A stretch of DNA of 64,000 nucleotides from Squalus acanthias. Its lineage: Eukaryota. Numbering within the stretch: the first letter of the stretch is position 1; every line of letters begins with the position of its first letter. The position numbers and the translations under genes were made by a program. A model generated the notes under the pieces. The model did not search any database. It was not told the DNA's origin and saw nothing but the letters and a program-made list of their open reading frames with translations. This document shows, piece by piece, positions 61,708 through 62,841 of this stretch. The stretch covers positions 231,942,001 through 232,006,000 of the forward strand of contig CM059425.1 in assembly GCA_030390025.1 (NCBI GenBank). The letters run 5' to 3'.

Positions 61708-62841
61708 ATATTGTGCCTTTCTTGGGAGTGGGACTGCAAGATTGAGGGTAACCTTGTAGGGTTGTGCAGTTAACATCTTTCCGACCTCATTGGGGTGGCT
61801 CGACCATACTTGCTTGGGGATTTGACTCAGAAGTTTCTCTACTTCTGGTAGGAGCGGGAAGTTATGGATGTCCAACACCCTTGCCTCAAATTTGCCTTCG
61901 AACAGCAGGCTTGTCTGCAATTCCACCCCGTATCCCTGCTTTTTTTCAGACTGGACCAAGGTACCCTGAGGCACTTGCCACTCTTTTTCTATTCCTAGTC
62001 CTCTCATTCTTTTAACCATTGATCCCAAGTCCCTTGGTGCATGTCCTTGTGCCACCGCTAGGGTGCAGTGTGGTTTACTGTCTTTTTCTTCAAACAGGTC
62101 CCATGCTTCCATGGGTAAAAGAACAGCAGCGGCTACGCCTTCGGGACCAATTAAAATTTTCCGAATTTTCAGCAAATATCTGTGTTGCAGAACGGGCTTA
62201 TAATATCTTTTGTGGTATTTGTCCATTCCTGTCTCATCATAAAAGGCTGTGCAGTGGAGCTCTGTATGCCAATGGCCCAAATGCAATTCTTTCTGGTATT
62301 TGGACATCGATCTAAGGACAAATTGGAGGGAGCCTATAATAGTTGACAATGTTTTGCTAAGACCATCTTCACAAATCTGCCATGCGTATAGGACCGGGGA
62401 CAATTTGATCTGTAGTGGGTACATACCACATCTGTCTACGGGAACATGGACTTCAAGTCCTTTTTCAGAGCAAACAATCGTTGCCTTCATTTTGCATAAT
62501 AAGTCTTTTCCTAATAAATTCACTGGTACTTCTTGAGACAGTAAAAAGGTATGTTGGTTCCTGTAATTATCTACTTGCACATTGAGGGGTTCTGACCAAG
62601 TCATGGTCTGAGTAACTCCTGACAATCCTACGCAACTGGCACTACTGGCTGTACACGGAATTCCTCCTGCATATTGTTTTGTCAACACTGAATTGGTGGC
62701 TCCCATATCTACCAGAAAAGGAATTTCTTTTCCCTCCATATTTATTATTAAGGTGGGCTCTTCTGTCATATTGGTTGAAACTGCAGGCAATCGTACTAGG
62801 GGTAATTGCTTTTGGGCAATCTGAGGGTCAGGTCCCAGGCG

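What the first reader, a model, noticed from the sequence alone, without database searches (positions are those of the whole stretch)
61876..62403. Retroviral pol carries an extra 2H-phosphoesterase-like domain between protease and RT
Seen: after the protease ends (NLLGKDLLCKMKATI) and before RT begins (IPKQVWS..PNEVG) there are ~175 extra in-frame residues. They hold two intact hHxTh motifs 62 aa apart: ELHCTAF (His at 62254-56) and KPHCTLAV (His at 62068-70). Known: paired HxT/S motifs define the 2H phosphoesterase superfamily (CNPase, tRNA-ligase CPDase, AKAP7, coronavirus ns2, rotavirus VP3), and 2H domains have been reported in some fish retrovirus polyproteins. Inference: this shark-like ERV encoded a virion-packaged cyclic-phosphate or 2',5'-phosphodiesterase. 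It might repair 2',3'-cyclic-phosphate RNA/tRNA-primer ends or degrade 2-5A or cyclic-dinucleotide immune signals. I know of no established function for it in retroviruses.
Basis: partly seen in the sequence, partly recalled or inferred. Interest (0 to 1): 0.82.

Follow-up and report, generated by a model that had tools for sequence, protein, structure and literature searches.

The report
CNPase-like enzyme inside shark retrovirus Pol
A young but broken retrovirus in a shark genome carries, between its protease and reverse transcriptase, an extra domain that is conserved in many fish retroviruses and is predicted to fold like the host enzyme CNPase, so it likely removes cyclic-phosphate caps from RNA ends; such domains were noted in fish retroviruses before, but I found no test of what they do.

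Summary
Observation confirmed. An epsilon-like shark ERV (minus strand, LTRs 99% identical, pol split by a SINE) has about 187 extra residues between protease and RT, with two intact HxT motifs 62 aa apart. Three ERV families of this genome and 123 database clusters match it (90 with both motifs); the long ones checked are mostly retroviral Pol. The AlphaFold model (pLDDT 90) matches vertebrate CNPase far better (Z 19.4) than the 2-5A or cGAMP phosphodiesterases (Z 5.9-7.8). It keeps a helix where CNPase has alpha7, which blocks the 2',5'-substrate side. Best reading: a CNPase-type 2',3'-cyclic-phosphate 3'-phosphodiesterase made as part of Gag-Pro-Pol, likely packaged in virions and likely cut free at aromatic-Pro sites. 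The 2-5A/cGAMP idea is weaker but open, since three active-site rim residues differ from CNPase (notably Val to Lys/Arg). The walleye retroviruses WDSV and WEHV1 carry the same fold, and reviews already cite 2H/CNPase domains in fish retroviruses. This scan found it twice before in other genomes. I found no functional test. New member of a known kind; substrate open.

The parts
61858..62418 (-). CNPase-like 2H phosphoesterase domain of Pol (187 aa between putative Y|P and F|P protease sites; structural core 61873-62415)
62245..62256 (-). First 2H motif H-C-T-A (His60/Thr62; counterpart of mouse CNPase His230/Thr232); Tyr65 five residues on matches Phe235
   Evidence: His in 104 of 108 aligned rows; aromatic at +5 in 70 of 90
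62059..62070 (-). Second 2H motif H-C-T-L (His122/Thr124; counterpart of His309/Thr311)
   Evidence: His in 118 of 122 aligned rows
62002..62037 (-). Predicted helix 133-144 right after motif 2, in the place of CNPase helix alpha7; Gly137 lies 15 residues after the His as in CNPase
   Evidence: DSSP of model; hhalign register; Gly at +15 in 81 of 90 viral and 117 of 117 CNPase sequences
62419..62763 (-). Retroviral aspartyl protease (active-site motif degenerate in this copy); ends at putative type-1 site GMY|PLQ
   Evidence: Pfam RVP E 1.9e-11
62842..62844 (-). gag stop TGA, in frame with pro-pol (likely readthrough; context UGA-CGC, close to ZFERV UGA-CGA)
   Evidence: PMC13517186 passage
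62845..63712 (-). gag remnants in two frames: capsid-like part 63275-63712, NC with one zinc knuckle 62845-63264
61708..61857 (-). N-terminal piece of RT (PLLPEV...IPKQVWS...), before the insertion
61303..61707 (+). SINE-like insertion (~405 bp) that breaks RT in this copy
   Evidence: absent from 7 of 7 same-family copies; further partial copies in the window; the label SINE rests on its tRNA-like head and repeat nature, family name not tested
58585..61302 (-). RT - RNase H - integrase core frame
   Evidence: Pfam RVT_1, RT_RNaseH, RNase_H, Integrase_H2C2, rve
58403..58602 (-). Second, partial copy of the same SINE-like repeat inside integrase
58001..58411 (-). Frame holding the integrase C-terminal domain
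   Evidence: Pfam MLVIN_C E 1.2e-11
56725..58145 (-). env, in more than one frame (TM part 56725-57348)
   Evidence: Pfam TLV_coat E 9e-13
55967..56617 (-). 3' LTR (651 bp, TG...CA, preceded by a polypurine tract); the 5' LTR lies just outside the window (L031:441-1094)
   Evidence: 650 matches, 1 mismatch, 2 gaps between LTRs

Best explanation
The insert is a conserved domain of the viral Gag-Pro-Pol polyprotein that is predicted to fold like the CNPase catalytic domain, and it likely worked as a 2',3'-cyclic-phosphate 3'-phosphodiesterase, likely carried in virions and likely cut free by the viral protease. Steps: (1) shown: it lies in frame between PR and RT behind an in-frame gag stop, so it would be made only with Pol, by readthrough (inferred from gamma/epsilon retroviruses). 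(2) Inferred: it is packaged at Pol stoichiometry and released at GMY|PLQ and HNF|PLL, aromatic-Pro sites that bracket the CNPase-matching core. In many bony-fish relatives no such site is evident at the RT side, so there it may stay on RT. (3) Predicted from structure: His122 activates a water held at the helix start and His60 protonates the 3'-oxygen, giving a 2'-phosphate, 3'-OH product as in CNPase. (4) Most speculative: the substrates are cyclic-phosphate ends left by host endoribonucleases on RNA inside or around the viral core (primer tRNA, genome fragments) or free 2',3'-cNMPs. Opening them gives 3'-OH ends and removes a mark that innate sensors read. The added Lys/Arg in the pocket would suit an RNA end better than a mononucleotide. 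This copy and its sisters are now decaying; the function belonged to the infectious virus.
For: Fold: all 43 rows listed from Foldseek PDB ranks 1-50 are CNPase/RICH, best E 5.7e-10, TMq 0.74. VIA over 48,161 chains: CNPase Z 19.4, 178 aligned, rmsd 2.6; next 9.6; MHV ns2 7.8, Acb1 7.7, AKAP18 7.3, rotavirus VP3 6.8, penguinpox cGAMP PDE 5.9; fungal RNA kinase (6u05) 12.7. Sequence alone agrees: family profile vs CNPase profile 94.8%, E 5e-8, both motifs in register; the only PDB hits to the domain part of the profile are CNPase/G-RICH, weak at E 0.03-2. CNPase-specific helix: predicted helix 133-144, Gly at +15 in 81 of 90; alpha7 is unique to CNPase and blocks the 2',5' side (PMC5283653; PMC4643303). 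Selection: families A and B share 95-98 of 184 residues with synonymous sites saturated (pS 0.76, pN 0.31); both His kept in 104 of 108 and 118 of 122 rows. Same fold in exogenous WDSV and WEHV1 polyproteins. Cleavage: type-1 sites are aromatic-Pro with Asn favoured at P2 (PMC3185560); Y-P and F-P are kept in families A and B at 53% identity. RNA with cyclic-phosphate ends is sensed by RIG-I/MDA5, NLRP3, TLR8 (passage in PMC8406329).
Against: No activity was measured. Three CNPase substrate contacts are not kept: Val321 is Lys/Arg in 71 of 90 viral domains (0 of 117 CNPases), Arg307 is kept in 2 of 90 (117 of 117 CNPases), and Tyr168 appears to be Leu/Ile by end-to-end register (my inference). 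So the substrate may have shifted. The aromatic-Pro sites are not evident in family C or in most of the 21 database relatives whose junctions were printed, and WDSV protease sites have Gln at P2, which neither site here has. Most retroviruses replicate without such a domain (own knowledge), so any primer-repair role is not essential. An RNase L gene was not found in this genome by a search that gives only lower bounds (2 KEN-domain hits, both IRE1-like by my reading). The model's helix was compared with alpha7 by register and global superposition, not by docking.
Confidence: 0.5

Rival explanations
1. The domain was re-tooled to destroy an immune second messenger (2'3'-cGAMP or another cyclic dinucleotide, or 2-5A), working like poxvirus cGAMP PDE, phage Acb1 or coronavirus ns2, and was delivered with the core to blunt sensing of reverse-transcribed DNA.
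For: Other viruses repeatedly use 2H enzymes this way (PMC11410667; PMC8406329). The host has an expanded OAS cluster (26 OAS1_C exon matches, 25 on one contig) and Mab-21/cGAS-fold genes (6 matches, cGAS not singled out). The Val-to-Lys/Arg change and the loss of Arg307 show a remodelled rim. The domain evolves faster than PR and RT (dN 0.41 vs 0.21-0.25; 26% vs 47% mean identity), as conflict genes often do.
Against: Structural scores to all known 2-5A/cGAMP enzymes are Z 5.9-7.8 against 19.4 for CNPase; Acb1 and ORF4b TMq 0.35-0.44 vs 0.74. The alpha7-like helix is kept and in CNPase blocks the 2',5' side. Most named carriers are bony fish, which by my recollection lack OAS/RNase L (not confirmed in PMC6307210 passages); this argues against 2-5A, not cGAMP.
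Confidence: 0.22
2. [quoted passage not shown]
For: 2H enzymes process cADPr>p and are discussed in that network (PMC9503650); fish epsilon-like ERVs also carry macro domains (PMC4977317); CNPase binds dinucleotides such as NADP.
Against: The plant Appr>p CPDase scores only Z 7.6. Pfam found no macrodomain in this provirus's frames or in 23 long relatives scanned at E 1e-4.
Confidence: 0.1
3. The domain is mainly a binding module: a captured mimic of host CNPase, which restricts lentivirus assembly by binding Gag, acting as a decoy or Gag/RNA scaffold, with catalysis secondary.
For: Host CNPase inhibits lentiviral particle assembly by binding Gag (passage in PMC5434554) and is an interferon-stimulated gene (abstract of PMC3832489 in listing).
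Against: The best conserved residues are the catalytic His/Thr and the pocket Gly while overall identity averages 26%, the pattern of an enzyme rather than a mimic; identity to CNPase is only about 20%.
Confidence: 0.1
4. The motifs are chance features of a linker or a one-off insertion in this copy.
For: Pfam and single-sequence PDB searches give nothing for the domain; a word-based protein search found no relative.
Against: Conserved in three ERV families of this genome, 123 clusters, confident model and Z 19 match.
Confidence: 0.01

Closest known systems
2H/CNPase domain of fish epsilon(-like) retroviruses (WDSV, WEHV1; fish ERVs), noted by Mazumder 2002 and Basta 2009 as cited in PMC9503650 and PMC4977317
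   Same: Same fold inside a viral polyprotein (BFVD top hits Q2VF30, WEHV1 Q9WHI8, WDSV A4GTG3, E 5e-12 to 1e-8); same PR-2H-RT position in bony-fish ERV Pol proteins; in-frame gag stop as in SSSV/ZFERV.
   Different: Here in a shark, in three families of one genome; about 20-30% identity to bony-fish relatives; aromatic-Pro sites at both borders in families A and B, not evident in most relatives. I could not read the two originals, so what they say about position, sharks or function is unchecked.
Vertebrate CNPase / goldfish RICH catalytic domain (PF05881; PDB 2xmi, 1woj, 2i3e)
   Same: Whole catalytic domain superposes (model 7-187 on mouse 160-378, rmsd 2.6, Z 19.4); both HxT motifs, the Phe235-equivalent aromatic, the alpha7-position helix and its Gly.
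   Different: About 20% identity; no N-terminal PNK-like domain or C-terminal tail; motifs mostly 61-64 apart instead of about 74-88, so a shorter loop; Val321 to Lys/Arg, Arg307 lost, Tyr168 probably Leu/Ile; below the Pfam CNPase threshold (4 of 90 family members hit it weakly, best E 2.7e-4).
Viral 2',5'-phosphodiesterases (MHV ns2, MERS NS4b, rotavirus VP3-CTD, host AKAP7) and cGAMP PDEs (Acb1, avian poxvirus PDE)
   Same: 2H superfamily fold and paired His motifs; virus-encoded.
   Different: Much lower structural match (Z 5.9-7.8); helix alpha7 is unique to CNPases within the family (PMC5283653); a different 2H branch.

Membership tests
2H phosphoesterase superfamily | Two H-x-T/S-x motifs | tested here: met
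   HCTA and HCTL intact; paired motifs in 90 of 123 representatives, many of the rest being fragments
2H phosphoesterase superfamily | Bilobed 2H fold | tested here: met
   Model pLDDT 89.6, pTM 0.83; the top 21 VIA rows (Z >= 5.9) are 2H proteins by entry title or my recall
2H phosphoesterase superfamily | Phosphodiesterase activity | not testable with these tools
   needs an enzyme assay
CNPase subfamily (catalytic domain) | Closest structure and profile is CNPase | tested here: met
   Z 19.4 vs next 9.6 and 12.7; hhalign 94.8%
CNPase subfamily (catalytic domain) | Helix alpha7 after the second motif | tested here: met
   Predicted helix 133-144; Gly at +15 in 81 of 90; predicted, not solved
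CNPase subfamily (catalytic domain) | Substrate contacts Phe235, Val321, Tyr168, Arg307 | tested here: not met
   Phe235 equivalent kept (70 of 90); Val321 is K/R in 71 of 90; Arg307 in 2 of 90; Tyr168 probably Leu/Ile (inferred)
CNPase (whole host protein) | N-terminal PNK-like domain and C-terminal tail; Pfam PF05881 over cut-off | tested here: not met
   Only the catalytic domain is present; PF05881 found the host gene's 3 exons and no ERV copy. So CNPase-like, not a CNPase.
CNPase subfamily (catalytic domain) | 2',3'-cNMP to 2'-NMP activity | not testable with these tools
   needs an enzyme assay
2',5'-PDE (AKAP7/ns2/VP3) and cGAMP PDE (Acb1/poxvirus) | Nearest structural relatives are these enzymes; open 2',5' side without alpha7 | tested here: not met
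   Listed at Z 5.9-7.8 against 19.4; helix present in model
2',5'-PDE and cGAMP PDE | Cleaves 2-5A or cGAMP | not testable with these tools
   needs an enzyme assay
Fish epsilon-like retroviral PR-2H-RT Pol | 2H domain in frame between PR and RT | tested here: met
   same order in relatives
Fish epsilon-like retroviral PR-2H-RT Pol | gag-pro by in-frame stop, single zinc knuckle, gamma-type env and integrase C-terminal domain | tested here: met
Genus Epsilonretrovirus proper | RT phylogeny with WDSV/WEHV and accessory ORFs | not tested

The most novel reading that the evidence does not exclude
One ancient capture of a CNPase catalytic domain gave a whole lineage of shark and bony-fish retroviruses a fourth kind of Pol enzyme. 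It is a virion-borne phosphodiesterase whose pocket was rewired (Val to Lys/Arg) to destroy a nucleotide immune signal or mark, either cyclic-phosphate RNA ends or a cyclic dinucleotide. That would be the first retroviral enzyme known to me that clears innate-immune nucleotide signals from within the incoming core.
Probability: 0.25. Interest if true: 0.8.

Novelty: new member of a known kind. Interest (0 to 1): 0.42.

Why it matters
Retroviral Pol usually holds PR, RT/RNase H and integrase (sometimes dUTPase). A CNPase-derived enzyme kept under purifying selection across shark and bony-fish retroviruses, including tumour-causing walleye viruses, points to an unrecognised step in their life cycle. 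Its existence is in print, but in the papers I could search nobody has assayed it. The present analysis narrows the question: the fold says CNPase chemistry rather than the 2-5A/cGAMP chemistry of other viral 2H enzymes, and names the rim residues that differ. One cheap substrate panel on the isolated domain would settle it and might also shed light on the unclear natural substrate of host CNPase.

Tried and rejected
Uninformative searches: Pfam on the domain, 0 families; phmmer vs PDB, 0 hits; word-based protein search among longer proteins, none of 721 candidates. The 13-sequence profile's best PDB hits were designed DPBB proteins (E 0.002), rejected as chance since the fold search does not support them. 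ESM Atlas gave 2H-type clusters (score 0.95, tRNA_lig_CPD in 63% of members) but with recognition below its threshold, so weak support only. P0114 (4276 aa, PKD/Ig domains) is a false positive among the 123. Host co-option of the domain: not supported; variants within families look neutral (family A 4 synonymous vs 23 non-synonymous, family B 8 vs 36 plus 2 stops). RT identity between families A and B was discarded because the family-B copies used appear to be deleted or shifted inside RT. Tree: quick search only, 51 viral vs 16 CNPase rows split with support 100 over a long branch, no outgroup, so direction and number of captures are not shown; two hagfish CNPases were dropped for lacking my motif pattern, and 75 of the 123 representatives were left out as fragments or lacking a motif. 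Mantel test of domain vs RT identity (rho 0.52, p 0.0004, 13 proteins) fits co-inheritance, but close kin inflate it. RNase L in the host: not found, inconclusive. Rfam and ARAGORN found nothing in 55000-64000. Literature searches for a functional test found none, but Mazumder 2002, Basta 2009, Fodor and Vogt 2002 and Wilson 2012 are not held, so absence from print is not established. No supplementary files were read.

Full report
What is there. The finding lies in the pol gene of an endogenous retrovirus on the minus strand. The frame 61546..62841 is open and holds a retroviral protease (Pfam RVP, E 1.9e-11), then a stretch with no Pfam match, then the start of RT. The rest of the provirus is present: gag remnants with one zinc knuckle, an RT-RNase H-integrase frame, an MLV-type integrase C-terminal domain and env, a 3' LTR at 55967-56617 and a 5' LTR just beyond the window end, differing by 1 mismatch in 651 positions and two gaps. 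With the rate assumed for elephant shark in PMC4422223 (2.2e-10 per site per year; first of two parts of the text read) that is a few million years, very roughly. This copy is broken: a 405-bp SINE-like repeat, absent from 7 of 7 sister copies, interrupts RT, a second partial one sits in integrase, gag and env are split over frames, and the protease motif is degenerate. The host is a shark: its CNP exon is 81% identical to a shark CNPase and the 15 best hits are all cartilaginous fish.

It is a real, conserved domain. The genome holds it in three ERV families: 11 loci of the window's own family (mostly 88-97% identical over their matched pieces), 10 at 52-54% and 29 of a third family at about 26%; counts are lower bounds. 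A profile of 13 copies found 123 clusters at 50% identity. Of 23 long ones scanned, 22 are retroviral Pol-type proteins and one is a false positive; of ten looked up, seven clusters carry names, from a sawshark, zebrafish species, cichlids and pipefishes. Where PR and RT motifs are both present the domain lies between them, with one rearranged exception, P0006. The first His is kept in 104 of 108 aligned rows and the second in 118 of 122. Between families A and B synonymous sites are saturated (pS about 0.76) while pN is 0.31: purifying selection in the replicating virus. Within families, variants look neutral, so the endogenous copies are decaying and give no sign of host co-option.

Which kind of 2H domain. 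An AlphaFold2 model on 90 sequences is confident (pLDDT 89.6, pTM 0.83). All 43 rows that Foldseek listed from PDB ranks 1-50 are CNPase or goldfish RICH (best E 5.7e-10, TM 0.74). The independent wide search gives mouse CNPase Z 19.4 (178 residues, rmsd 2.6), then bacterial CPDase/LigT 9.1-9.6, MHV ns2 7.8, Acb1 7.7, AKAP18 7.3, rotavirus VP3 6.8, penguinpox cGAMP PDE 5.9; a fungal RNA kinase entry (6u05) reaches 12.7. Sequence profiles agree (hhalign 94.8%, both motifs in register; weak PDB profile hits for the domain part only to CNPase/G-RICH). CNPase differs from other 2H enzymes by helix alpha7, which holds the attacking water and blocks the side on which 2',5'-linked substrates bind in ns2/VP3/AKAP7-type enzymes (passages of PMC5283653, and PMC4643303). 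The model has a helix at 133-144, directly after motif 2, and its Gly is kept in 81 of 90 viral and 117 of 117 host sequences; the base-stacking aromatic is kept in 70 of 90. Against a simple copy of CNPase: Val321 is Lys/Arg in 71 of 90 viral domains and in 0 of 117 CNPases, Arg307 survives in 2 of 90, Tyr168 seems replaced by Leu/Ile (my register inference), and one flanking loop is shorter. A quick unrooted tree separates 51 viral domains from 16 CNPases by one long branch, and domain and RT distances correlate over 13 proteins. Both fit a single old capture carried along with RT but do not prove it.

How it likely works. The gag stop is an in-frame TGA in the window's copy and in 6 of 7 other family A and B copies examined, with a context like ZFERV's (passage of PMC13517186), so the domain would be made by readthrough at Pol levels and packaged with Gag-Pro-Pol (inferred). 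The sequences GMY-PLQ and HNF-PLL bracket the CNPase-matching core (model 7-187). They fit aromatic-Pro type-1 retroviral sites (passage of PMC3185560) and are shared with family B, so release as a 187-residue protein is likely here. They are not evident in family C or most bony-fish relatives, where the domain may stay on RT. By analogy with CNPase the enzyme would open 2',3'-cyclic phosphates to 2'-phosphate and 3'-OH. I put 0.5 on that chemistry acting on damaged RNA ends or cyclic nucleotides around the viral core, which would both free 3'-OH ends and erase a mark read by innate sensors (passage of PMC8406329). Destruction of cGAMP or 2-5A gets 0.22: the host has an expanded OAS cluster and the pocket is remodelled, but the fold argues against it. 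Appr>p hydrolysis and a non-catalytic decoy role get 0.1 each.

What is known. A 2022 review states that 2H domains occur in certain retroviruses such as walleye dermal sarcoma virus, citing Mazumder 2002 (passage of PMC9503650). A 2016 review states that fish epsilon-like ERVs occasionally encode a CNPase or macro domain, citing Basta 2009 (passage of PMC4977317). The viral fold library returns WDSV and WEHV1 polyproteins among the three best hits. I could not open either original. The virome-wide study of LigT-like PDEs does not contain the words CNPase, walleye or Retroviridae in its main text (PMC11410667). Nine searches found no functional test, within a library that lacks many subscription papers. 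Passages of PMC11629607, PMC6307210, PMC5434554 and PMC3185748 were also read; only the Gag-binding remark of PMC5434554 is used. Two earlier notes of this scan report the same kind of domain in other genomes; they were seen after my structural results and are not counted as support.

Verdict. Observation confirmed; interpretation partly supported and narrowed to a CNPase-type domain. New member of a known kind, function untested. Interest 0.42; novel case (a virion-borne enzyme clearing nucleotide immune signals) probability 0.25, interest 0.8 if true.

Noticed in passing
window 55967-64000 and L031:1-1094: The two LTRs differ by only one substitution and two gaps, yet the interior carries two SINE-like insertions and split gag and env frames. 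LTR gene conversion, or copying of an already defective template, could explain the mismatch; not resolved. The 4-bp flanks match at only 3 of 4 positions.
   Followed up: partly
L031:415-432: Candidate 18-nt primer-binding site, 8 nt from the 5' LTR end (a longer gap than usual); by recall it matches the 3' end of a vertebrate tRNA-Gln, whereas walleye retroviruses use tRNA-His. tRNA identity not tested.
   Followed up: partly
G000:C13:83.21-83.49 Mb (L035-L038): Tandem cluster of about nine OAS-like genes (25 OAS1_C exon matches) plus one match on C1; an expansion of this antiviral family in a shark, while no RNase L KEN domain was found by a lower-bound search.
   Followed up: partly
window 40953-46997 (+): Exons of an LDL-receptor-related host gene (YWTD, EGF, LDLa, Ser/Thr-rich stretch and a transmembrane segment) lie upstream; the provirus is antisense to it.
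   Followed up: no
L030 (G000:C17:50332095-50335511): In this family-C copy gag and pol are in one open frame with no stop at the junction, whereas L028 has TAG there.
   Followed up: no
L031:1530-4565 (+): A degraded Gypsy-like LTR retrotransposon pol (protease, RT, integrase-like frames; label from my reading of the translations) lies just beyond the 5' LTR.
   Followed up: no
G000:C1109 and G000:C1:15.86-15.92 Mb, 27.33-27.34 Mb: Several ERV copies occur as near-identical clusters sharing the same break, suggesting segmental duplication rather than separate insertions.
   Followed up: no
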